Source: a virus
Taxonomy: Duplodnaviria > Heunggongvirae > Uroviricota > Caudoviricetes
Virus record (IMG/VR): IMGVR_UViG_3300029080_000073
DNA length: 21,388 nt
Reading direction: 5' to 3' (one strand)
Positions 1,635-14,642 of this stretch are shown one piece after another. Each line of letters opens with the position of its first letter. Position 1 is the first letter of the stretch. The notes under the pieces were generated by a model. That model was not told where the DNA came from, ran no database searches, and saw nothing but the letters and a program-made list of their open reading frames with translations. The position numbers and the translations under genes were made by a program.

Positions 1635-1991
1635 TTACTGGTAATCCCCTTCTTCACCGTGGAACTCAAGATCGACCGTGCCTTCTTCGGCATTATGGTT
1701 CGCTTCGCCGTGCAGCCAGGCAGACGACAGTACATAGACCTGACCGTTCGCCAGCTCGGCAGTGATGGTCATCTCATCAGACGAGGTGATTTTGCTCACC
1801 GGAAAATTCTTCGGCACCTTGAAGGTCCCTTTGACATAAGGCGCACGGTGAGTTTCCTTGCGGTCCACTGAACCGTCCAGGCCGATGATGTCATCATTGA
1901 CCGTCCTGTTCATGGGCACCTCAATGCCGCCGGTCAGTGATAGCTGCTGACCGTCAATTTTGAAATAACAGGTTCCCCCGATACGGGCCAT
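1635..1991 (-). CDS. contractile-tail tube protein
   Basis: 118-aa ORF immediately after the sheath-like ORF (stop/start abut at 1991), with size and position typical of Mu gpM / P2 FII tube proteins. Confidence 0.5.
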   Translation of the reverse strand: MARIGGTCYFKIDGQQLSLTGGIEVPMNRTVNDDIIGLDGSVDRKETHRAPYVKGTFKVPKNFPVSKITSSDEMTITAELANGQVYVLSSAWLHGEANHNAEEGTVDLEFHGEEGDYQ

Positions 1992-2767
1992 TATGCAGAC
2001 TCCTCTGAATACTGAAGACGGAACTGGTTAACCACGGCAAAGACACGCAACTGGTTAACATAGTCAGGCGGGAACAGCGTGTTCAGGCGGTTCGGATCGC
2101 TGGCATCACGCTCCACAACCAGGTACTGCTTGAACAGTTCGTAGTTTTCCACGATCCCCGCACGCTCGAGCTGACGGTAGGTTGCCAGCAGTTCCCCTTT
2201 GATCACCGCCGGGGTGACAATCGCCTGACCGGGACCAAAGCGGGTACCGTCACTGGCAAGCTTGTGACGCCCGTACTTACTGGTAATGACGGATTTCAGT
2301 TTGCGCAGTACATACGCGCTGGTATGCAGCGTCTCGCTGTCGAGGTAGCTGTTATCCGCAACCCCGTAAGCGTTTTTCCTGTACGTGGTGACATCACGCT
2401 GAATGCGCAGCACCCCGCTTTCGACATACGCCGTTGCCACGCCATGAGACAGCAGGGTCTGCTGCTCGGTCATTGTGAACCGTTTCCCCTTCGGCGCAGG
2501 CAGCATACCCACCAGCTCACCGGTCTGCGTGGGACGTGCCGGATCGTTGCGGATAAACACTGCCGCGCGGGCGGTACGGCTGGCTGCCAGCTCGTCGGCA
2601 GGCGTCTGGGTGTCTTTTTCGTACCCCGCCAGGGTAATGTGCTGCTGGTTAAACTGGTCACCTGCGGTCACCAGTTCTGACAGCGTGCCGGTCTTTGCCG
2701 TATACACATGACCATACAGCTGACGCGCATAGCTCCAGCGACCGCTGGTATCGTTCATCTCGGTCAC
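1991..2767 (-). pseudogene. tail sheath protein, C-terminal portion only (truncated)
   Basis: 258-aa ORF directly upstream of the tube gene with a sheath-like C-terminus; too short for a sheath and overlaps the terminase fragment in another frame. Confidence 0.45.
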
Positions 2768-3332
2768 CGTCCTCCGGACGGCTCATGCTTTGAGCATGTA
2801 CTTCAATACCAAATGCTTCACGCAATGGCTCCGTGCGTTGCGCCATCAGTCTGGCTGGACGAAAAACTTCCCACGCCTGTTTCTCTGTTGTGGCCCCGGA
2901 ATACACTTCAGCGCCAAATTCATCATCGCAGGCAAACATATACAGACCAACGCCAGCAGACATTGCTGATTTCCCGTTTTTACGGGGTATTTCGTTGTAA
3001 GCCTCGCGAAATCGACGCAGACCGCTCTTTTTTCTCACCCACCCAAACACAACACAGATACAGAACAACTGCCAGGGTTCAAGCGTAATGGGCATCCGCT
3101 TAAATGCCCACTCCCCTTTGGTGTGTGGCAAAAGCTGGATAAATTTCGCCACCCGCTCAGCTTTATCTTTATCAAATTTAAACGGATAGTTTTTTTTAAC
3201 TGAATTTTCCAGGTCATCAAGGTGACGCTGGCAGGCTAGAACGACATAACGGCAAACCTGAATTTTTCCGCGAACCACGTCACGTGCATACTGATTTGCG
3301 GCATTAACGTTCACGTAATTTTTTCGTGTCAT
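2658..3332 (-). pseudogene. terminase large subunit, N-terminal ATPase fragment (truncated)
   Basis: Follows the small terminase gene with overlapping stop/start; Walker A-like PRKNGKS present; only 224 aa with a non-protein-like tail ([11 protein letters not shown]...), no nuclease domain. Confidence 0.6.
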
Positions 3333-6311: not shown

Positions 6312-6914
6312 TCACAGGTACTGCTCCAGCGGCAACTGCAGCGCCTGCGCAATTTTCTTCAGTTGCGCTTCTTCTTCCTGAGCGATACCGTCCTGGTCAG
6401 CGATATCCAGACACAGGCACAGCACATTAACTGCATCATCAGTACCGGCAACATCAGCCAGCTGACGAAGAGCTTCGGCATTGGCAGAACGCGGCGACGC
6501 TTCATAACGGGCGCGGATATTTGCACTCATTTGTGCAATCTCACCGGAGAACGGCGCAAAGGCAGGAAGTGCTGCAATGGTTTTTTCCAGTACCGCGATT
6601 TCTTTCGCGTCACAGGTGCCGTCAGCGTATGCAATGGAGTACGCGCCCCAGACGGTCGCCTCCACTGCGTCACGGTTCTCCATCTTCTTCACTTCGGTAA
6701 TGGCCTTGCGGGTTTTCTTTTTGAAAATACTAAACATCGTGACTTTTCCTTTTAGTGGGTGAGCCTGCATAACAAGCTGAGTCAGTATTAACTGGCAGCG
6801 TTCGCGTGAAAGGTAAGTATTCTGCGCAATTTCCCCGACGGTCGCCGGTTCGGTGACGCTTAATTCATTAAACACCACTCTGGCGGTTTCGGTCATATCC
6901 TGCTGTTTTAGCAT
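6312..6914 (-). CDS. TerB-like (tellurite-resistance-fold) domain protein, cargo gene
   Basis: Paired YADGTCDAKEIAVLEKTI and IADQDGIAQEEEAQLKKIAQAL motifs resemble the TerB fold; start set at internal Met preceded by AAAGG (track ORF begins 7037 inside the terminator). Confidence 0.45.
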   Translation of the reverse strand: MLKQQDMTETARVVFNELSVTEPATVGEIAQNTYLSRERCQLILTQLVMQAHPLKGKVTMFSIFKKKTRKAITEVKKMENRDAVEATVWGAYSIAYADGTCDAKEIAVLEKTIAALPAFAPFSGEIAQMSANIRARYEASPRSANAEALRQLADVAGTDDAVNVLCLCLDIADQDGIAQEEEAQLKKIAQALQLPLEQYL

Positions 6915-7035
6915 GCCTTTTTCCCTTTTCTGGTTAACGTGACATACCAATACCTCTTGTCGAAAAAGCCAGCAAGCTGAAAGACCAGTATTCACAACTA
7001 CCAGCGCGTTTAATGTTCTGTGCCGTTTTTCAGGC

Positions 7036-7063
7036 ATAAAAAAACCCGCATAAAGCGGGTTCT
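7036..7063 (-). terminator. intrinsic terminator downstream of Q (tR'-like)
   Basis: Stem aacccgc / gcgggtt with 5-nt loop; on the minus strand followed by a 7-T run. Confidence 0.55.
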
Positions 7064-7226: not shown

Positions 7227-7781
7227 CTAAGCGTCAGTAAAAGAAAATGCATCTCGCATCAGTGGATACAGAATAAACTCAGCTATTCTCAGCCACATAT
7301 CTATACGATTGCGGCATGTTGCATAGCACCACTCAGGGTGAACCTCATTCAACAATTCAGCCATTTTGCGTTTACTCATCCCCCGCCCTTCGTACCTTTG
7401 CCGCAGGATATCAATCAATCCAGGATAACGTGCAAGCGCTTTACTTATCACCCCATCAATGCGTAACGCCTCTGCATCAGTACAGTGAGACAACCAGCTC
7501 TTCTGTCTGCCAGCGATCATCTCTCGCAAGAATGCTTCCAGCTCTGGTTTATCAATCCCTGACTCCCTGATTCTACGCAGGGCTTCATTGATTGCGGTTT
7601 TTGTCAGTTTTTTGGATGCCAGCAACTGATTGAACATATTTCCTGGTTTGCCACCACCTATATACGACCAACGCCCCCACATCCGTAATTTCCCCTGGAT
7701 CCAGACGACTTCCAGCGTTTTTAGACGTAAATGCTCGCCGCTTTTGCCTGTAATTTCCGGATATATCATATTTACGATCAC
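7227..7781 (-). CDS. late-gene antitermination protein Q-like
   Basis: 184-aa ORF directly after RusA and before the terminator and lysis cassette, the DLP12/82 arrangement; assignment is positional plus weak recall. Confidence 0.5.
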   Translation of the reverse strand: MIVNMIYPEITGKSGEHLRLKTLEVVWIQGKLRMWGRWSYIGGGKPGNMFNQLLASKKLTKTAINEALRRIRESGIDKPELEAFLREMIAGRQKSWLSHCTDAEALRIDGVISKALARYPGLIDILRQRYEGRGMSKRKMAELLNEVHPEWCYATCRNRIDMWLRIAEFILYPLMRDAFSFTDA

Positions 7782-8143
7782 TCACTCTCAATTTTGTAAA
7801 TCTTCACGCCCAGCCGCCCCCCAGGAACGAGCTGACCGCGCACAATATTGATTTCATCAAACTGCTCGTCGTCTATGAGAAGTCCGGCATGCGTCAGCGC
7901 ATCCAGTGGTGCTTTCAGGATATTGTCCAGGTCACGACGACGTTTATCCGGTGGCTCTGCAATAATCTTTATCGCCAGCCTTCCGGACAGGTTTAATTTC
8001 AGCCGCTGCTGGCGAACAATAAGCGCCACATCACGGCGATAACGCTCACCGGCTTTTGATACAAAATATGTGCTGCCACGACGTCGCCAGTAAGTGTTCA
8101 CCGTTGGCGGGTAAGGCAAAACAAATTCTATGCGTTCAGTCAT
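7778..8143 (-). CDS. rusA: crossover junction endodeoxyribonuclease RusA (Holliday junction resolvase)
   Basis: 121 aa; motifs LPYPPTVNTYW and DKRRRDLDNILKAPLDALTHAGLLIDD match the RusA family (catalytic D-x-D-N). Confidence 0.85.
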   Translation of the reverse strand: MTERIEFVLPYPPTVNTYWRRRGSTYFVSKAGERYRRDVALIVRQQRLKLNLSGRLAIKIIAEPPDKRRRDLDNILKAPLDALTHAGLLIDDEQFDEINIVRGQLVPGGRLGVKIYKIESE

Positions 8144-9127
8144 TCATGCTTTCCACTTCAGGACACCCGAATTTCTCGCGTGCATTAAAAAACGAATCAG
8201 CAACAACAGCTGGCTGCCGTGTTTTTCTTCAAAATCTTTTACCCCGGCGTGTAGTTCGCTATGGCATTTACGGCACAGCGGAATAACAAACAAATCATCA
8301 GCCTTTGTTCCCATCCCTCCCAGTCCATGACCAATGATGTGATGCGGATCATCTGCCTGATTGCCACACGTCATGCATTTCTGCGTTTTTACCCAGCGCG
8401 TGTATACAGGCATCTCTTCCCGTTGTGGTTTCTGGCGCTGGAGATACTGAGCCGGTGACTCCGGATCAACGGCAATGCTGACCACCGTCTTTTCCTGTGG
8501 CGGGTTTTGCTGGTGGGCGTGAGGCAGTAGCGCAATACTTTTTGTGCGCTGCTTCAGCATGCTGGTGGCGGTCTGCTCTCCCGGCACGATGTCGCTCTCG
8601 CGGTATACTGAGCGAATTTTTTCCGCGCGTAATCCCAGCGAACGACGTAACACCATCTCCGGTAGTGCGTCCGCTACGTTATTTATGGTTGCCCACCAGG
8701 ATAATTCAGCCAGCGATAATTCCCGCTCCTGCGTGCCATTCATTGCGTGGCGGATGACATCAATCATCCATGCTGACAGGTTTTGGTGAGCAAGTTGCTC
8801 GAGTGATTCGGAAGTCTGGTTACGCAGCTGGTTGTCGCAGTGCCAGCACAACACCATCGCGCCGGTACCGTAACGATGTATGACGGTTTCACTGTGATGG
8901 TAGTCACCATGAGGCCACTGGCAGGATTTAACGTGGCGTAACAGCCAGTCAGACAATGCACCAGCACCACCAGCAGCACGAATCACCCGCTCATCGCTGA
9001 AAAATGGCAGTAATGATTTATCCTCCGCCAGCGGCTGGCGAACAGCAGGAACGACTCCGGACGGCAGACCGCGCATGCTTTTCGGTTCCGGCTCCACCAG
9101 AACTCGAGGGTTATGAAATACCTGCAT
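8144..9127 (-). CDS. DUF968 (YdfU-like) protein with C-terminal HNH-like zinc motif
   Basis: C-terminal CMTCGNQADDPHHIIGHGLGG...IPLCRKCHSELH motif; start uncertain (track ORF 8144..9271 overlaps the upstream gene; internal Met chosen). Confidence 0.5.
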   Translation of the reverse strand: MQVFHNPRVLVEPEPKSMRGLPSGVVPAVRQPLAEDKSLLPFFSDERVIRAAGGAGALSDWLLRHVKSCQWPHGDYHHSETVIHRYGTGAMVLCWHCDNQLRNQTSESLEQLAHQNLSAWMIDVIRHAMNGTQERELSLAELSWWATINNVADALPEMVLRRSLGLRAEKIRSVYRESDIVPGEQTATSMLKQRTKSIALLPHAHQQNPPQEKTVVSIAVDPESPAQYLQRQKPQREEMPVYTRWVKTQKCMTCGNQADDPHHIIGHGLGGMGTKADDLFVIPLCRKCHSELHAGVKDFEEKHGSQLLLLIRFLMHARNSGVLKWKA

Positions 9128-9200
9128 GGATTCACGGCCCGGTTTTAGCACCACCAGCCCAAGTTCCGGTACCGGAACAGGTCGAAGTAATACCCGCACG

Positions 9201-9608
9201 TTACCTCCAGATGCGTTGCTGGAATGTGCGGGACGGACGCGGTGGGCGTTCGGAATAAGGGAGCCTGACATAGATTATCCAGTGACGATAATCGAGGCTG
9301 AGGGCTTTCTTAATCTCGTATCCGTGTCTGCGGTAGCGCTGAATCAGCCATTCAGCCTGTTCTTCGGTGCAGGGATCGTGCTGATACCAGTCAGATTTGA
9401 ATGCATGAGAACGCCGCCCGTGCCTGCTGGCAGGGGCGGCAGAGTTATCCGAATTGTAAAATTTGGTATCGTGCGCCATCTGTTTTCTCTGCTGGCGCAG
9501 CAGGTGCCAGTTGTTCAGGCTGACGGATGGATTGTAAACCAGAACGACCAGAAAAAACAAAACCCGCCGAAGCGGGTTAAGTGCGGGTGCGTTGAGGATG
9601 CCTGACAC
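9201..9608 (-). CDS. hypothetical protein between hok and the DUF968 gene (Rem-like position)
   Basis: ORF track only; likely true start at internal MAHDTKF (about 9479). Confidence 0.3.
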   Translation of the reverse strand: MSGILNAPALNPLRRVLFFLVVLVYNPSVSLNNWHLLRQQRKQMAHDTKFYNSDNSAAPASRHGRRSHAFKSDWYQHDPCTEEQAEWLIQRYRRHGYEIKKALSLDYRHWIIYVRLPYSERPPRPSRTFQQRIWR

Positions 9609-9646: not shown

Positions 9647-9802
9647 TTACTCCTCAGGTTCGTAAGCTGTGAAGACAGCGACCTCCGTCTGGCCGGTTCG
9701 GATTCGTACCTCGCAGAGGTCTTTCCTCGTTACCAGTGCCGTCACTATGACGGTTAAACAGATGACGATCAGGGCGATTAACATCGCCTTTTGCTGCTTC
9801 AT
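9647..9802 (-). CDS. hok: Hok/Gef family type I toxin (51 aa)
   Basis: MKQQKAMLIALIVICLTVIVTALVTRKDLCEVRIRTGQTEVAVFTAYEPEE matches the Hok/Gef family throughout (TM helix plus conserved C-terminal tail). Confidence 0.9.
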   Translation of the reverse strand: MKQQKAMLIALIVICLTVIVTALVTRKDLCEVRIRTGQTEVAVFTAYEPEE

Positions 9803-9859
9803 AGCCTGCTTCTCCTTGCCTTTCGGCACGTAAGAGGCTAACCTACATTTGTGAGACAT
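9647..9859 (-). CDS. mok: mok-like overlapping reading frame
   Basis: In-frame upstream extension (MSHKCRLASYVPKGKEKQA) of the hok ORF, as in hok/mok/sok loci. Confidence 0.55.
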   Translation of the reverse strand: MSHKCRLASYVPKGKEKQAMKQQKAMLIALIVICLTVIVTALVTRKDLCEVRIRTGQTEVAVFTAYEPEE

Positions 9860-9975
9860 AGATTGGGCCTCAGATTAATGTTAAGCGTCTTGCAGGACGC
9901 GTAATGTTAACTGGGGCTTTTCTCTATCTGCCTTTTGGTGTTCATGCCTGAGACAGATAGCCTCAAGCACCCGCA
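9860..9975 (+). ncRNA. sok: hok mRNA leader / predicted Sok antisense RNA region (exact ends not mapped)
   Basis: Region upstream of mok carries GCUUGAGGCU-like 5' end and local hairpins expected of the hok leader; Sok would lie on the opposite strand here. Confidence 0.3.
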
Positions 9976-10061: not shown

Positions 10062-10241
10062 TTACCGCCAGCATTCAATGCACATGACCGCCATGAACAC
10101 CCCTAAAAAAAGGGCATTTATATGTCCAAACATTAATATCAAAACATCAATTTTTTCCATATACCTTGCTGTGAAGATGATGGGCATACATGATGCGAAC
10201 AACCAGAACGCAACAAACAAAAACTGCAATGCGTTTTTCAT
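10062..10241 (-). CDS. hypothetical small membrane protein (59 aa), AT-rich
   Basis: ATG preceded by GGGGGA; two hydrophobic segments; track ORF 10062..10280 uses an upstream GTG. Confidence 0.3.
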   Translation of the reverse strand: MKNALQFLFVAFWLFASCMPIIFTARYMEKIDVLILMFGHINALFLGVFMAVMCIECWR

Positions 10242-10361
10242 TATTCCCCCTACAATCAATGTGCAATAACATTTAAACACACCTCAATTTGGCCGGACAT
10301 ATAAATATCTAAACCAGAAAAAATCACTTACATAGCGTTACAAACTCTTTAGTCTAAATAT

Positions 10362-10877
10362 TCATCGTAAAACATCCTCCACGCTTATCAGTCCATTTCG
10401 TTTCAGGTAATCCATCGCCTTCTCCGGTAATTTGCAGTCCGGCTGAGCTTTTTTCAGTTGACTGACCAGTCGTTTAACCCACATTGTTAATTCGCTAACC
10501 TGATTGCCGGATGCTGGTGGATTGTCGGCTTTACCCAGAATGGCAGCGCAGCAGGCCTCTCTGAGCACCCAGTCAACAGCATCCTTCCATGCTCCTGTTT
10601 CGACTGGCGGATTCTCACGCTTTACCTGTTCATAAAAGCGCACGGCTTTAACCAGTCCTTCTGATGTCACCGGGACTGGCGGGCCGATGAATAAGGCCTG
10701 AATTTCATAGTTCGGCCTGTCGTTACAATCCTCTTTTGTCGGTACATATTTCCAGTCACCAGCCCACGGCTTCCCCTGAAAGTCTGTAACGTCTTTTTTC
10801 ACGTAGCGATATCGCCATGCAACTGGTTTTGCCTGCCCTGCCGTTTCATGCCCTTCCTGATAATTAATCTCGCTCAT
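10362..10877 (-). CDS. hypothetical protein (171 aa), nin-region-like
   Basis: ORF track; start overlaps stop of the upstream small ORF (ATGA). Confidence 0.5.
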   Translation of the reverse strand: MSEINYQEGHETAGQAKPVAWRYRYVKKDVTDFQGKPWAGDWKYVPTKEDCNDRPNYEIQALFIGPPVPVTSEGLVKAVRFYEQVKRENPPVETGAWKDAVDWVLREACCAAILGKADNPPASGNQVSELTMWVKRLVSQLKKAQPDCKLPEKAMDYLKRNGLISVEDVLR

Positions 10878-11050
10878 TCATCGCCCCACTCATCACAATA
10901 TGCTTCGACCGGAGTTTTTCCTGCTTCATAATCATCACGCCATGCTTCAGCATCAGCAGCACTGCCACCACGTAACTCTGCATAGTCCATTAACAGTTCA
11001 TGCCATTCTTCAAAACTGACGTTGTATTTAGTTGAACCAAAATCAGCCAT
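10874..11050 (-). CDS. hypothetical small acidic protein (58 aa)
   Basis: Hand translation MADFGSTKYNVSFEEWHELLMDYAELRGGSAADAEAWRDDYEAGKTPVEAYCDEWGDE; 16 of 58 residues acidic; coupled stop/start with next gene. Confidence 0.35.
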   Translation of the reverse strand: MADFGSTKYNVSFEEWHELLMDYAELRGGSAADAEAWRDDYEAGKTPVEAYCDEWGDE

Positions 11051-11225
11051 TTTGTTCTTCCTCTTCGTCTTTTATTTCGTGATATGAGTAATTGCAGTAG
11101 TTAAAGAAAATATCTTTTGCTTCGTCATGTATTTCATCAGGCGTCGCATCATCATCCACTTCGAATTCATCCTCGAAATCTCCACCGGCTATTCCCGTTT
11201 CAATAATTATTTTAAACTTTCGCAT
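11043..11225 (-). CDS. hypothetical small highly acidic protein (60 aa)
   Basis: ORF track; 20 of 60 residues are D/E (FEDEFEVDDDATPDEIHDE ... KDEEEEQ); AT-rich. Confidence 0.35.
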   Translation of the reverse strand: MRKFKIIIETGIAGGDFEDEFEVDDDATPDEIHDEAKDIFFNYCNYSYHEIKDEEEEQNG

Positions 11226-11318
11226 TTAACTACCGCCCTTTCGGGCGGCCTCCTGATGTTCTGAGGGTGCAGAAATCCCTCCGGTTAAGGATTAAATTTT
11301 TAACAGAGCTAAATTTAA

Positions 11319-11675
11319 TTATTCAGTTCTGGATTTTGTCGCCCTGCGTATCCGCGCTTTCGCGTTACGCTCAATCTGAATTAGCTTTTCTATATTTTTT
11401 CGCCTTTCCCGCTCCTCCTGACGCAAGAGCCTTACATCATCTGCCAGTCTGGTTTCTCTTTTCGCCACAGAGAGCATCCAGTCAAATGGCTCCACAACTG
11501 CACCGCAGATTTTACAGCGGACCTGACGCTCTTTTTCGTCAACCCGGACAGAGGCGTGATGACAATATGGTCTTTCCGATGGCTCATAAAGAAAATTAAC
11601 CTGATTACGAGGGTCATCCTCTTTTACCGGAAATAAAACGATATTGCTTAACTCATCCTCTGGTTTTATTTCCAT
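11319..11675 (-). CDS. hypothetical zinc-ribbon protein with basic coiled-coil tail
   Basis: C-H-H ... C-K-I-C pattern followed by an R/K/E-rich C-terminus. Confidence 0.45.
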   Translation of the reverse strand: MEIKPEDELSNIVLFPVKEDDPRNQVNFLYEPSERPYCHHASVRVDEKERQVRCKICGAVVEPFDWMLSVAKRETRLADDVRLLRQEERERRKNIEKLIQIERNAKARIRRATKSRTE

Positions 11676-11755
11676 GCTCCTCTCCTTTGATGCGAATGCC
11701 AGCGACGCGTAATGCGTGTTCTAGGTCAATCAGGTAAAGCCAACTGCCATTTTCT

Positions 11756-11950
11756 TTAGGTACCCGAACGATTCAGGATTTTTTCCACCCGCAACTGGCG
11801 ATTCTGGCGGTTGATCTCCTCGCTACGTTTTCGCCCTTCTGCCAGTTGCCACTCGCGCCACTCGTCCACTGTCCGGTACGGCGCGATTACATGCTGCGGG
11901 GTCAGCTTACGGATACGCTCAAGAACACCACCTGTCGCGATATTTTTCAT
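11756..11950 (-). CDS. hypothetical small protein (64 aa)
   Basis: ORF track; starts 7 bp after the replication gene stop. Confidence 0.35.
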   Translation of the reverse strand: MKNIATGGVLERIRKLTPQHVIAPYRTVDEWREWQLAEGRKRSEEINRQNRQLRVEKILNRSGT

Positions 11951-11956
11951 GGCCCG

Positions 11957-12922
11957 TTACCCCCTGAACCCCGGCGGAATTTCGGTATCCGGCTCAGAAA
12001 TATGATTCACGCAACGCTGTACAGACGAACGCCCCAGGCGGATAACCAGTTCATCCCATTTTTCGCGAAGCTTTGACGGACTCATGATATTTTTTACCCA
12101 GAATGGATCCCGCTGCGCCCGACCAAACATTTCACAAATTTGTCTGTGAGTTCTGCCATCCAGCATCCGCATTGTGCGCACGTCGTTGGCCCATGCGGTC
12201 CAGTTGGGTTCTTTCGGTCGCGAAATCTCGCCATCATCGCTGGCGGCCTGCTCGTAAAGACTCACGATTCGTCCCCAGATCCACTGCGCACACGCCAAAT
12301 CTTCCTGGTTGCCCCACTGGCGTTTTTTTGCACTGAACACAACCGCGTCAGGGTGTCGGGTTAAAAAATCCTGTTCAACCGTCTGCGGGTCCGGTTGCGA
12401 AGCTTCCGGACGAGAAGTGTTTTTATTCTCTGTAGTAATCTCTGTTGTATTCTCTGTAAGATCATCAGGCCATTTTGACCCGATGACATTGAGTCGTTTT
12501 GAACCAATGGAACGTGCCATTTTGGCCCCTTCCATCGTGTCATTCTGACCTGATGGAGCAGCGCATTTTGACCTGATGGATTCGCTCACTTTGCCACCAT
12601 TTAAAAGCTCGCTCTCGTAATTAATCGTGTAAAAATTAGTCATATCACGCTTTGATTTATTGAGCTTTTCGCAACGCAAAAGCCCCAGCGTTTTCAGACT
12701 TGCAAATGCGCGTTTTAACGTTGACTCTGACCAGAACGGGAACTGCTCCAGCCATTGTTCTGTTGTGTTATAAATCCAGCGAACACCATCACATTCCATG
12801 CCGGAACCGGTATCTCTCAACCAGTAATGCAACTGCTGCAACACGATGGCTTCGTTCAGACCAATTTTCATCGCCAGCTGCGTGTTTATAACCAGCGGAC
12901 GTTCAGCAAAAAGGAGCTTCAT
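11957..12922 (-). CDS. phage replication initiation protein (O-like winged-helix N-domain, DnaT-like C-region)
   Basis: N-terminal winged-helix-like segment; gene contains internal iteron-like repeats plus an AT-rich tract, like the lambda O gene with ori. Confidence 0.6.
   Translation of the reverse strand: MKLLFAERPLVINTQLAMKIGLNEAIVLQQLHYWLRDTGSGMECDGVRWIYNTTEQWLEQFPFWSESTLKRAFASLKTLGLLRCEKLNKSKRDMTNFYTINYESELLNGGKVSESIRSKCAAPSGQNDTMEGAKMARSIGSKRLNVIGSKWPDDLTENTTEITTENKNTSRPEASQPDPQTVEQDFLTRHPDAVVFSAKKRQWGNQEDLACAQWIWGRIVSLYEQAASDDGEISRPKEPNWTAWANDVRTMRMLDGRTHRQICEMFGRAQRDPFWVKNIMSPSKLREKWDELVIRLGRSSVQRCVNHISEPDTEIPPGFRG
12461..12572. repeat. iteron-like direct repeats (candidate ori) inside the replication gene
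   Basis: Three good copies of CATT(T/C)TGACC(C/T)GATG(A/G) at about 12461, 12531, 12554 plus a degenerate copy near 12508, followed by an AT-rich tract to about 12665. Confidence 0.5.
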
Positions 12923-12943: not shown

Positions 12944-13369
12944 TCAATGCGCCACCACGGCATTTCCCGCCGGACCACCACGATTCATCTGATCGAACAA
13001 CACGATCGCTGCCGCAACAAACTCATCGATATCTTTCACCAGGCGCTCCCGTCGCTCGACAAGCTCCCGGTGATATTCCGAACTGTGGCTGCGCATTCGG
13101 GCCACCAGTGGAGGCGGCATTGCTTTTTCGATCGCCGGTAACAACGCCTGAATTTTTTTAACCGCATCAGGGGTGTCTTTTTCTACCCAGCGGAAAATTT
13201 TCTGGGTATTACGAGACAGGGCTTCCGGATGGCTGTCGTCATACAGTTCAGGAAACGTCATACCCAACTCAAAATAAGCCTGGGTTATTCCAGCTACTGG
13301 AACTTTTTCGCCATCAGGACGCGCCCAGGCATTCATCGCCATGCGGATGTGTTCATGCTTGATTTTCAT
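12944..13369 (-). CDS. YdaT-like protein (CII-position)
   Basis: N-terminus MKIKHEHI and size (141 aa) as remembered for Rac YdaT; directly downstream of the Cro-like gene. Confidence 0.55.
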   Translation of the reverse strand: MKIKHEHIRMAMNAWARPDGEKVPVAGITQAYFELGMTFPELYDDSHPEALSRNTQKIFRWVEKDTPDAVKKIQALLPAIEKAMPPPLVARMRSHSSEYHRELVERRERLVKDIDEFVAAAIVLFDQMNRGGPAGNAVVAH

Positions 13370-13625
13370 GAATCAACTCCGGTGCATTTGATGTGTTAAC
13401 CTTGAATCCAACAGGTAAACCGTCGGTTGGGTTAGGATAAATATCAGGGCGAATTTCATGCGGGGTAACTTCCCACTTCATTAGCTGACATAACGGAATT
13501 ACCTGCTTTGGGGGAACGTCAAAGCTAAACCATTGCCAAACTGTCTGTTGAGCGACCCCCATATAACGACCTATTTCAGCTTGAGTGTATTTCTGCCTAA
13601 TTTTTTCGCGAGTGCTATCTAGCAT
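13353..13625 (-). CDS. Cro/YdaS-like HTH regulator
   Basis: HTH segment QAEIGRYMGVAQQTVWQW; divergent from the repressor gene across the operator. Confidence 0.6.
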   Translation of the reverse strand: MLDSTREKIRQKYTQAEIGRYMGVAQQTVWQWFSFDVPPKQVIPLCQLMKWEVTPHEIRPDIYPNPTDGLPVGFKVNTSNAPELIHENQA

Positions 13626-13734: not shown

Positions 13735-14136
13735 ATGATGAACGCCCTAGAAGTATCTATGTACAGAATCAGCAAGCTTCTTCAGGAAACTGGATGGAGC
13801 CAGGCTGAGCTTGCCCGTAGAATTGGTGTGACACAACAAACTGTTCAACAATGGGTCAGCGGTAAGGCTACACCTAAAGCCTCAAGTTTGGATAAACTGG
13901 TTGAGGTTACAGGGCATCCATTGCATTGGTTTTTATTGCCTCCTGAAGAGGGGGAGCAAATTTTCACCCCTGACACGATGAAAATTGGTCCTCGTCAACG
14001 CGAACTGCTCCAGGCTTTTAGTGCGTTTCCAGAGGAAGACCAAGAAAAAATGCTTCAAGAAATCAAAGACAAGAAAAAATCAATGGAAGAAACCATTGCC
14101 CGGTGGTTGGCGGCACAAAAAAGCCGCCGGGCGTGA
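13735..14136 (+). CDS. DicA/cI-like XRE-family HTH repressor
   Basis: HTH (SQAELARRIGVTQQTVQQWVSG) plus C-terminal region laid out as in DicA; ATG sits about 7 bp after a TAAAAT -10-like hexamer, suggesting a leaderless mRNA. Confidence 0.7.
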   Translation: MMNALEVSMYRISKLLQETGWSQAELARRIGVTQQTVQQWVSGKATPKASSLDKLVEVTGHPLHWFLLPPEEGEQIFTPDTMKIGPRQRELLQAFSAFPEEDQEKMLQEIKDKKKSMEETIARWLAAQKSRRA

Positions 14137-14163: not shown

Positions 14164-14355
14164 ATGAGTACAGCCCTTTCTCCGATAGTTTCAGAATTCG
14201 AAACTACCGAACAAGAAAACAGTTACAACGAATGGTTACGCGCTAAAGTGGCGTCAAGCCTTGCAGACCCTCGTCCCTCAATTCCACATGATGAGGTAAT
14301 GGCTGAAATGGAGAATCTTATTGCTCAAATTGCTGTAACTAACAGGAGCGAGTAA
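14164..14355 (+). CDS. type II antitoxin (ParD/RelB-like)
   Basis: 63-aa ORF whose stop overlaps the toxin start (ATGA), directly upstream of a ParE/RelE-fold toxin. Confidence 0.55.
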   Translation: MSTALSPIVSEFETTEQENSYNEWLRAKVASSLADPRPSIPHDEVMAEMENLIAQIAVTNRSE

Positions 14356-14642
14356 TGTTACCCATTTTGTGGCTACCATCTGCTCGCGATGATTTGCGTC
14401 AGATCGTAGCCTATATTGCTAAGGAAAATATTCCTGCAGCACGCAGACTAAAAATACGGATTGAAACGTCTGTTTTAGCCCTCTCTGAGCATCCATATCT
14501 ATATCCGCCAAGTGATCGAGTATCCGGTTTGCGGGAAATTGTGGTTCACCCTAATTATATCGTTTTGTACCGAGTAGCAGCTTCAAGCATTGAAATTGCA
14601 AATATTGTGCATGCCCGCCGACAATTTCCCTTCCCTATCTGA
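14355..14642 (+). CDS. type II toxin, ParE/RelE superfamily
   Basis: 95 aa; DDLRQIVAYIAKENIPAARRL ... GLREIVVHPNYIVLYRV ... IANIVHARR matches the ParE/RelE pattern. Confidence 0.7.
   Translation: MLPILWLPSARDDLRQIVAYIAKENIPAARRLKIRIETSVLALSEHPYLYPPSDRVSGLREIVVHPNYIVLYRVAASSIEIANIVHARRQFPFPI

What the first reader, a model, noticed from the sequence alone, without database searches (positions are those of the whole stretch)
10362..11950. Operon of small nin-like genes including two adjacent strongly acidic proteins
Adjacent ORFs of 60 aa (about 33 percent Asp/Glu) and 58 aa (about 28 percent), with overlapping stop/start codons, flank a 171-aa protein and a zinc-ribbon protein. Small acidic early proteins are the hallmark of DNA-mimic anti-restriction or anti-defence factors (Ocr, ArdA and some Acr proteins follow this pattern).
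Basis: partly seen in the sequence, partly recalled or inferred. Interest (0 to 1): 0.55.

Follow-up and report, generated by a model that had tools for sequence, protein, structure and literature searches.

The report
Two acidic mini-proteins in prophage cassette
Two adjacent, very acidic 58- and 60-residue proteins in a decayed E. coli prophage are real, conserved phage genes of unknown function; they could be decoy inhibitors of DNA-binding host or defence proteins, but nothing links them to any known anti-restriction family.

Summary
On the minus strand, a 60-aa ORF (11043-11225; 33.3% Asp/Glu, net charge -15) and a 58-aa ORF (10874-11050; 27.6%, net -12) overlap by 8 nt. The 58-aa ORF overlaps a 171-aa ORF by 4 nt, and a 118-aa zinc-ribbon ORF lies upstream. 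These are the two most acidic of 125 ORFs in the window.

Both are genuine genes, with dN/dS of about 0.1-0.16 and exact copies on at least 1000 contigs. The 60-aa protein belongs to Pfam DUF7167, a family of stand-alone, uniformly acidic proteins of about 55 aa found in temperate and virulent phages of Gram-negative and Gram-positive hosts. The 58-aa protein belongs to PHROG 519, which also occurs in Ackermannviridae.

Two corrections. The fifth "gene" (11756-11950) is the 63-aa stump of a DnaC-like helicase loader left by a 1631-bp deletion. The cassette is "nin-like" only by position; in Stx phage ArgO145 the same cassette sits in the exo-xis region among Ea22-like genes.

The parts
11043..11225 (-). 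p60: a 60-aa, 33% Asp/Glu protein of Pfam DUF7167 / PHROG 1997. Predicted fold is beta-beta-alpha-beta plus an acidic C-terminal tail.
   Evidence: Pfam PF23768, E 7.9e-15, 55 bits against a cut-off of 24.4. phrog_1997, E 9e-31. AF2 mean pLDDT 79. dN/dS 0.10. 218 clusters at 50% identity in the exhaustive profile search.
10874..11050 (-). p58: a 58-aa, 28% Asp/Glu protein of PHROG 519. Predicted three-helix bundle with the conserved motif GGSAADAEAW-x2-DY-x-AGKTP...EWG.
   Evidence: phrog_519, E 4.5e-23. No Pfam, NCBIfam or PADLOC hit. AF2 mean pLDDT 85. tblastn hits in 202 phage records, including Ackermannviridae. Alignment. dN/dS 0.16.
10362..10877 (-). p171: a 171-aa mosaic protein (PHROG 660) that is translationally coupled to p58. 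It carries a 'PVAW...F-x2-PP' module, also seen in neighbours of DUF7167 genes in Klebsiella-type lambdoid phages.
   Evidence: phrog_660, E 4e-75, plus partial hits to five other PHROGs. Patchy tblastn coverage shows modular structure. 4-nt ATGA overlap with p58.
11319..11675 (-). p118: a 118-aa putative zinc-ribbon protein with a basic C-terminal helix (PHROG 1621). It is the most strongly constrained gene of the cassette.
   Evidence: phrog_1621, E 1.8e-56. Zn_Ribbon_TF, E 1.6e-4, below the cut-off. dN/dS 0.02 against ArgO145 gp17. Present upstream of p60 in most related loci.
11756..11950 (-). Truncated DnaC-like helicase-loader gene (63 N-terminal residues plus 1 residue), a pseudogene remnant. 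The deletion junction is at 11762|11763.
   Evidence: NCBIfam PRK12377, positions 1-63 of 248, 111 bits against a cut-off of 389. BLAST against L001 shows that 1631 bp (L001 12464-14094) are missing. No microhomology at the junction.
11232..11255 (-). AGGAGG (11250-11255) followed by the hairpin GCCGCCC-GAAA-GGGCGGU (11232-11249), lying 6 nt upstream of the p60 AUG.
   Evidence: Sequence. RNA fold. The hairpin sequence is retained in relatives whose upstream frame is open (87-aa variants). Its function is inferred only.

Best explanation
The region is a mobile accessory-gene cassette of enterobacterial lambdoid phages (p118 - p60 - p58 - p171). Here it lies in the rightward early operon, just downstream of a broken replication module in a multiply deleted prophage.

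p60 (DUF7167) and p58 (PHROG 519) are two unrelated, independently widespread families of stand-alone, highly acidic mini-proteins with no catalytic motifs. Most likely each acts stoichiometrically. Made early after infection or induction, it would fold into a compact domain of about 50 residues. Its conserved carboxylate-rich surface would occupy the positively charged nucleic-acid-binding site of a host or defence protein and block it, acting as a nucleic-acid decoy or inhibitor.

Shown here: the genes are real, conserved, acidic family-wide, small, stand-alone, and located in early-gene arrays. Inferred: protein binding, charge mimicry, and the identity of the target, which is unknown. Candidates include a restriction enzyme, RecBCD or another nuclease, a nucleoid protein, or RNA polymerase.
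For: - Composition and rank in the window.
- Purifying selection.
- Exact copies on at least 1000 contigs each.
- DUF7167 membership.
- 218 divergent clusters, almost all 50-60 aa and stand-alone.
- Acidity conserved across the family, with acidic columns concentrated on strand 2, the following loop and the exposed face of the single helix: E22 0.88, D25 0.88, positions 29-31, 33-34 and 38 at 70-88% acidic.
- Homologues in virulent phages with no lysogeny decision: Guernseyvirinae, Enterococcus Herelleviridae and Phapecoctavirus for p60; Ackermannviridae and Lastavirus for p58. All sit in tightly packed arrays of small genes.
- Predicted compact folds with no enzyme-like match.
- In T7, the only two small proteins this acidic are Ocr and gp5.9, both DNA mimics (established knowledge).
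- Kuttervirus members of PHROG 519 were flagged as candidate anti-CRISPRs by two machine-learning predictors, untested (bioRxiv 10.1101/2022.06.14.493971).
Against: - No sequence, profile or significant fold similarity to any characterised DNA mimic or anti-defence protein.
- A 50-residue monomer can imitate only about one turn of DNA, and oligomeric state could not be tested.
- The models are medium confidence and come from shallow alignments of 12-16 sequences.
- No experimental data or literature exists, and the families are not in the EVADES supplements held.
- No conserved functional neighbour was found.
- The T7 calibration rests on a single phage.
Confidence: 0.4

Rival explanations
1. 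This is the first reader's specific claim: p60 and/or p58 are Ocr/ArdA-type DNA mimics that block type I (and related) restriction-modification enzymes.
For: Their D/E fraction and pI are comparable to or above those of Ocr. The genes sit in early-operon positions. The families have a broad host range, which fits a ubiquitous target such as R-M systems.
Confidence: 0.12
2. p60 (DUF7167) inhibits a host DNA-end-processing nuclease such as RecBCD, AddAB or SbcCD. This would be analogous to T7 gp5.9 or lambda Gam, protecting phage DNA ends and favouring the phage's own recombination system.
For: In Guernseyvirinae the DUF7167 gene overlaps the start of a 454-aa exonuclease gene, next to a Gp2.5-like SSB/annealing protein. 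This is the same arrangement as T7 5.9/6. In Enterococcus Herelleviridae it directly follows a gene annotated as an exonuclease. gp5.9 is the other very acidic small T7 protein.
Against: The association is seen in only 2 of about 5 independent lineages. It is absent in the lambdoid and Phapecoctavirus contexts. ArgO145 already carries a Gam-like gene. There is no homology to gp5.9. Early DNA-metabolism regions are rich in nucleases anyway.
Confidence: 0.1
3. The cassette belongs functionally to the exo-xis/'ea' gene set of lambdoid phages. On this view p60 and p58 tune host physiology or the lysis-lysogeny and induction decision, as reported for Ea22, Orf60a, Orf61 and Orf63, rather than countering defence.
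For: In Stx phage ArgO145 the same cassette (gp17, gp15, gp14; 95-100% amino-acid identity) lies between the recombination genes and int/xis, flanked by Ea22-like genes. In Klebsiella-type lambdoids DUF7167 again sits between mosaic Ea22-like genes. Exo-xis genes affect lysogenisation and induction (PMC3824215 and PMC7093339, abstracts seen).
Against: Both families occur in strictly virulent phages with no lysogeny decision. There is no sequence similarity to any solved structure, and solved structures include lambda Ea8.5, Ea22 C-terminal domain and Orf63. Co-location in a hypervariable region is weak evidence of shared function.
Confidence: 0.2
4. In this particular genome the genes are silent cargo. 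The prophage is cryptic, and the cassette is merely carried along and does nothing for the present host.
For: The helicase loader is truncated. The terminase large subunit is cut to 224 aa and abuts a tail-sheath fragment. No sigma-70-like promoter was found on the coding strand between the immunity region and hok, so expression probably needs derepression of the early promoter.
Against: The four ORFs are intact. p118, p60 and p58 are 100% identical, and p171 is 99.4% identical, to the copies in a related prophage (L001) whose helicase-loader region is intact. This says nothing about their function in active phages. The simple promoter scan is insensitive.
Confidence: 0.15

Closest known systems
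T7 Ocr (gp0.3) and ArdA DNA-mimic anti-restriction proteins
   Same: Very high Asp/Glu content and pI of about 4. Early expression. No enzymatic motifs. Stand-alone small proteins.
   Different: No sequence or profile similarity, and neither appears among the fold-search matches. p60 and p58 are 58-60 aa, against 117 aa for Ocr and about 166 aa for ArdA (my knowledge). The predicted folds, beta-beta-alpha-beta and a three-helix bundle, are compact rather than elongated. Dimerisation is unknown.
T7 gp5.9 (RecBCD inhibitor, 52 aa)
   Same: Similar size and acidity: 0.25 D/E and net -8. In Guernseyvirinae the DUF7167 gene overlaps an exonuclease gene, as gene 5.9 overlaps gene 6.
   Different: hhalign finds no relationship. 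The association with an exonuclease gene is absent in the window and in most other lineages.
T7 Gp2 (RNA polymerase inhibitor), T4 Dmd and small anti-CRISPRs (AcrIIC3, AcrIE2, AcrIC9)
Lambda / Stx-phage exo-xis region proteins (Ea22, Ea8.5, Orf60a, Orf61, Orf63, Orf73)
   Same: Same genomic neighbourhood in Stx phages. Small, early, non-essential, hypervariable and flanked by Ea22-like genes.
   Different: No sequence similarity to any solved structure, a set that includes the solved exo-xis proteins. Both families also occur in virulent phages.
Lambda nin region genes (NinB/Orf, NinE, NinG/Rap, NinH and others)
   Same: Position between the replication genes and the Q-like antiterminator, with tightly packed, overlapping small ORFs.
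   Different: No Pfam match to any Nin family. The true nin-type functions of this prophage lie further downstream at 7227-9271: DUF968/HNH, RusA and the DUF1133 Q-like protein.

Membership tests
Pfam DUF7167 (PF23768) | Score above the family's gathering threshold over the whole domain | tested here: met
   p60 scores 55.1 bits against a cut-off of 24.4, E 7.9e-15, profile positions 1-60 of 60.
Pfam DUF7167 (PF23768) | Stand-alone protein of about 55 aa with the conserved core FEV-[DE]-DDAT-x3-I and an acidic helix | tested here: met
   The alignment with 105 representatives shows p60 has every high-frequency residue (E22, D25, D26, A27, T28, I32, A36).
PHROG 519 | Significant profile match | tested here: met
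   p58 gives E 4.5e-23. It matches only positions 76-137 of the 143-position profile, so it corresponds to the C-terminal module of that family.
Ocr (T7 gp0.3) family | Sequence or profile homology to Ocr | tested here: not met
   No Pfam hit at E of 0.1 or better. hhalign of the DUF7167 profile against T7 Ocr gives 0.3% probability. For p58, only the Pfam test was run.
Ocr (T7 gp0.3) family | Elongated, all-helical, dimeric fold whose carboxylates trace bent B-DNA | tested here: not met
Ocr / ArdA functional class (DNA-mimic anti-restriction) | Binds and inhibits type I R-M enzymes and relieves restriction in vivo | not testable with these tools
   This needs plating assays or binding assays. 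Only the compositional prerequisite (pI about 4, at least 27% D/E) is met.
ArdA family | Pfam ArdA domain, a protein of about 166 aa with three domains | tested here: not met
   No Pfam hit for p60 or p58. Their lengths are 60 and 58 aa.
T7 gp5.9-like RecBCD inhibitors | Sequence homology to gp5.9 | tested here: not met
   hhalign aligned a single column, with 0.08% probability.
Known anti-phage defence components (PADLOC-DB) | Match to any defence-system protein model | tested here: not met
   No hit for p60, p58 or p171. p118 has only a weak chance-level hit, E 0.033.
Lambda Nin proteins | Pfam match to a Nin family | tested here: not met
   None of the five ORFs matches a Nin family. Only the map position is nin-like.
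DnaC-like helicase loader (for ORF 11756-11950) | Full-length AAA+ protein of about 248 aa, including the ATPase domain | tested here: not met
   Only profile positions 1-63 of 248 are present, scoring 111 bits against a cut-off of 389. The remainder is deleted. This is a pseudogene remnant.
Anti-CRISPR proteins | Demonstrated inhibition of a CRISPR-Cas system, or homology to a validated Acr | not tested

The most novel reading that the evidence does not exclude
DUF7167 and PHROG 519 are two previously unrecognised, very widespread families of miniature nucleic-acid-mimic inhibitors. They would be carried by temperate and virulent phages of both Gram-negative and Gram-positive bacteria and would disarm a conserved DNA-targeting defence or repair complex such as type I R-M, RecBCD/AddAB or similar. 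At about 55 residues, they would be among the smallest DNA mimics known.
Probability: 0.15. Interest if true: 0.65.

Novelty: new member of a known kind. Interest (0 to 1): 0.3.

Why it matters
If either protein is shown to be a decoy inhibitor, two large families of 'hypothetical' phage proteins would gain a function. These are DUF7167, with 218 clusters at 50% identity, and PHROG 519, found in about 200 sequenced phages including Kuttervirus. Kuttervirus genomes carrying PHROG 519 were mined for phage therapy. Both proteins are small enough to be useful tools.

The cassette is carried by a large fraction of E. coli genomes: 3322 of 5426 complete genomes match part of the region. It is also present in Shiga-toxin phages. 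Any effect on host defences or DNA metabolism would therefore be relevant to prophage biology and Stx-phage spread.

As things stand, this is a well-founded candidate list, not a discovery.

Tried and rejected
1. Homology to known families. Pfam, NCBIfam, PADLOC and PHROGs gave only DUF or unknown-function families.
2. PDB sequence and profile searches for p60, p58, p118, p171 and the two family profiles gave nothing significant.
4. hhalign of the DUF7167 profile against T7 Gp2, gp5.9 and Ocr showed no relationship.
5. Domain fusions among long DUF7167 hits were only tandem duplications or read-through with neighbouring small phage genes (DUF7446, YopX) and were not informative.
6. Guilt by association. 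p60 and p58 are linked in 79 of 80 near-identical E. coli prophage loci but occur separately in every other lineage. They are therefore not an obligate pair. No conserved functional neighbour emerged.
7. Literature. There were no hits for DUF7167, the protein accessions, or the PHROG ids, apart from one untested Acr prediction. Nothing was found in the supplements held for EVADES or for the accessory-gene screen preprint.
8. The search for related loci failed or returned nothing useful with a diverse alignment or with single distant members. A degenerate-motif DNA scan returned mostly one Klebsiella-type lineage.
9. NCBIfam has no HMM for 'ead/Ea22-like', so that label could be checked only by BLASTP, with partial matches.
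10. I considered that the ORFs are spurious and rejected this on conservation and dN/dS.
Full report
**What is there**

The window is an E. coli lambdoid (Rac/Qin-type) prophage read right to left.
- It starts with integrase, excisionase and an 823-aa exonuclease on the plus strand.
- The repressor is at 13735-14136(+).
- On the minus strand come YdaS-like (13353-13625), YdaT-like (12944-13369) and a 321-aa replication initiator (11957-12922).
- The ORFs of the finding follow on the minus strand.
- Next is a hok/sok locus (Rfam sok, 9797-9972, 120 bits).
- Then come DUF968/HNH (8144-9271), RusA and a DUF1133 Q-like antiterminator.

The finding's ORFs are all on the minus strand:
- p64, 11756-11950
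- p118, 11319-11675
- p60, 11043-11225
- p58, 10874-11050
- p171, 10362-10877

**Check of the observation**

The numbers are right. p60 has 20 D/E in 60 residues (33.3%, net -15, pI 4.05). p58 has 16 in 58 (27.6%, net -12, pI 4.05).

p60 and p58 overlap by 8 nt, and p58 and p171 overlap by 4 nt (ATGA).

Among all 125 ORFs of at least 50 aa in six frames, these two rank first and second for acidity, and they are adjacent. The next ORF has 19.6% D/E and the median is 5%.

**Are they genes?**

Yes, on four grounds.
- Comparison with diverged copies gives dN/dS of 0.10 for p60, 0.16 for p58, 0.02 for p118 and 0.16-0.28 for p171.
- Each exact protein sequence is recorded on at least 1000 contigs.
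- Part of the region is found in 3322 of 5426 complete E. coli genomes.
- Protein-level relatives exist in distant phages.

**Corrections to the description**

First, p64 is the first 63 residues of a 248-aa DnaC-like helicase loader. Against a related prophage (NZ_AP022161, locus L001) the window lacks 1631 bp, with the junction at 11762|11763. The deletion removes the rest of dnaC, a DUF977 gene, a DUF4406 gene and most of an Ea22-like gene. There is no microhomology at the junction.

The prophage is decayed elsewhere too. The large terminase is reduced to 224 aa and abuts a tail-sheath fragment.

Second, nothing here matches a lambda Nin family. The resemblance is positional only.

Third, the same cassette occupies the exo-xis region of the leftward early operon in the Stx-converting phage ArgO145. 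There the order is Ea22-like, then p118, then one extra small gene, then p60, then p58, then Ea22-like. It lies between the recombination genes and int/xis.

The cassette is therefore a mobile module that travels between early operons. In Klebsiella-type lambdoids, DUF7167 genes are again bracketed by mosaic genes, two of which gave partial BLASTP matches to annotated Ea22-like proteins.

**The two acidic families: p60**

p60 is a full-length member of Pfam DUF7167 (55 bits, cut-off 24.4) and of PHROG 1997.

An exhaustive profile search of 1.84 billion representative proteins found 218 clusters at E of 1e-3 or better. Nearly all are stand-alone proteins of 50-60 aa.

In 105 of these the median D/E fraction is 27% and the median net charge is -10, with a range of -17 to -3. 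The acidic columns are conserved at specific positions: E22, D24-D26, 29-31, 33-34 and 38. They lie around an FEV-[DE]-DDAT-EEEI-EE-x-A-[RK]-[ED] core.

Relatives occur in several phage groups:
- Guernseyvirinae, where the gene overlaps a 454-aa exonuclease gene
- Enterococcus Herelleviridae, next to an annotated exonuclease
- Phapecoctavirus
- a Klebsiella lambdoid phage, where it again lies downstream of the replication genes

**The two acidic families: p58**

p58 has no Pfam family. It matches the C-terminal part of PHROG 519.

tblastn finds it in 202 phage records, mostly Ackermannviridae (Kuttervirus, Taipeivirus), with the conserved core W...GGSAADAEAW-x2-DY-x-AGKTP-x2-A-[YW]...EWG.

**Linkage of the two families**

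The two families are linked only in E. coli-type lambdoid prophages, where p60 lies directly upstream of p58 in 79 of 80 loci. Everywhere else each occurs without the other. They are not an obligate two-component system.

**Structure**

AlphaFold2 models were built on shallow alignments.
- p60 is predicted as a beta-beta-alpha-beta domain with an acidic C-terminal tail (pLDDT 79).
- p58 is predicted as a three-helix bundle (pLDDT 85).

- For p58 the matches are AAA+ lid-like and UBA-like helical bundles.

Ocr and ArdA do not appear in the listed matches. Foldseek of the p60 model against viral predicted structures returns only uncharacterised phage proteins of 50-60 aa.

Sequence and profile searches of the PDB are empty. 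Profile comparison of DUF7167 with T7 Gp2, gp5.9 and Ocr gives probabilities below 1%.

**Does acidity mean anything?**

As a calibration I computed D/E fractions for the 22 T7 proteins under 120 aa. Only Ocr (0.29) and gp5.9 (0.25) reach 0.25. Both are established DNA mimics, of type I R-M and of RecBCD respectively; that is my knowledge of the literature, and Ocr is also described as a DNA mimic in the EVADES preprint.

This is a single-phage calibration, and it says nothing about the target.

**Literature**

No paper mentions DUF7167 or the RefSeq accessions. The families are absent from the supplements held for EVADES, a catalogue of 268 anti-defence proteins, and from those held for a phage accessory-gene screen.

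PHROG 519 members of Kuttervirus were listed as machine-learning-predicted anti-CRISPRs in one preprint, without experiments.

Work on the exo-xis region shows that genes in that neighbourhood influence lysogenisation and induction (PMC3824215, PMC7093339). None of the studied proteins is related to p60 or p58.

**Interpretation**

The best-supported reading (confidence about 0.4) is that p60 and p58 are stoichiometric binder-inhibitors. Their conserved acidic surfaces would occupy a basic, probably nucleic-acid-binding, site on a host or defence protein.

Their presence in virulent phages argues against a purely lysogeny-related role. The lack of any catalytic signature, the small size and the conserved charge argue for binding rather than catalysis.

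The target is unknown. The specific Ocr/ArdA-like anti-restriction claim gets about 0.12. A gp5.9/Gam-like nuclease inhibitor gets about 0.10, supported only by gene position in two lineages. An exo-xis-type developmental role gets about 0.20.

In this particular genome the prophage is cryptic, and the genes may simply be silent cargo.

**Verdict**

It needs the two corrections above: the truncated dnaC, and the exo-xis/Ea22-type rather than nin-type affinity.

The proteins are catalogued but uncharacterised. They are not members of any known anti-restriction family. A decoy or inhibitor function is plausible and testable but not demonstrated. Interest is moderate to low (0.3): a reasonable candidate for an anti-defence screen rather than a surprise.

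Noticed in passing
window 11756-11950 (junction 11762|11763): The DnaC-like helicase loader gene is cut to 63 codons by a clean 1631-bp deletion relative to NZ_AP022161. The deletion also removed a DUF977 gene, a DUF4406 gene and most of an Ea22-like gene. There is no microhomology at the junction, and no complete E. coli genome in the collection carried the same junction as a single aligned piece.
   Followed up: yes
window 1991-3332: The large terminase subunit is only 224 aa (N-terminal ATPase part) and directly abuts a tail-sheath fragment lacking its N-terminus. This indicates a second large internal deletion that removed the head genes. The prophage is cryptic, and it combines a lambdoid early region with contractile-tail (sheath, tube, baseplate) genes.
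   Followed up: partly
window 11232-11255 (-): A strong Shine-Dalgarno-like AGGAGG lies 24 nt upstream of the p60 AUG. It is separated from the AUG by a GC-rich GAAA-tetraloop hairpin (7 bp), so folding would bring the effective spacing to about 6 nt. The hairpin persists in relatives. It could control translation of p60 or stabilise or process the mRNA.
   Followed up: partly
window 9647-9972 (-): A complete hok/sok type I toxin-antitoxin locus (Rfam sok, 120 bits; Hok ORF) lies immediately downstream of the cassette. The same arrangement occurs in most related prophages.
   Followed up: partly
window 14164-14642 (+): A ParE-family toxin gene (95 aa, Pfam E 6.6e-16) is preceded by a 63-aa ORF whose stop overlaps its start codon. 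This is a probable ParDE-like type II toxin-antitoxin pair inserted next to the prophage repressor.
   Followed up: no
L003 3501-5025 (Klebsiella phage VLCpiS11a); L093 17359-18406 (T7): In Guernseyvirinae the DUF7167 gene overlaps the start of a 454-aa exonuclease gene by 11 nt. This mirrors the way T7 gene 5.9 (the RecBCD inhibitor) overlaps gene 6 (the exonuclease) by 14 nt. It is a positional analogy that suggests a testable target.
   Followed up: partly
L008 5098-8760 (Stx phage ArgO145 gp10-gp18): The p118/p60/p58 cassette is at 95-100% amino-acid identity but sits in the leftward (exo-xis) operon rather than the rightward operon. It is an example of a whole small-gene cassette moving between early operons of lambdoid phages, apparently using flanking Ea22-like genes as recombination substrates.
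   Followed up: partly
window 10062-10280 (-): A 72-aa, very hydrophobic, AT-rich (37% GC) ORF lies in the gap of about 500 nt between p171 and sok/hok. It is not annotated in the related RefSeq prophage and could be a small membrane protein or noise.
   Followed up: no
window 6312-7037 (-): A 241-aa ORF with a TerB-like domain (Pfam E 2.5e-7) lies just downstream of the Q-like antiterminator. This is a position where lambdoid phages often carry morons.
   Followed up: no
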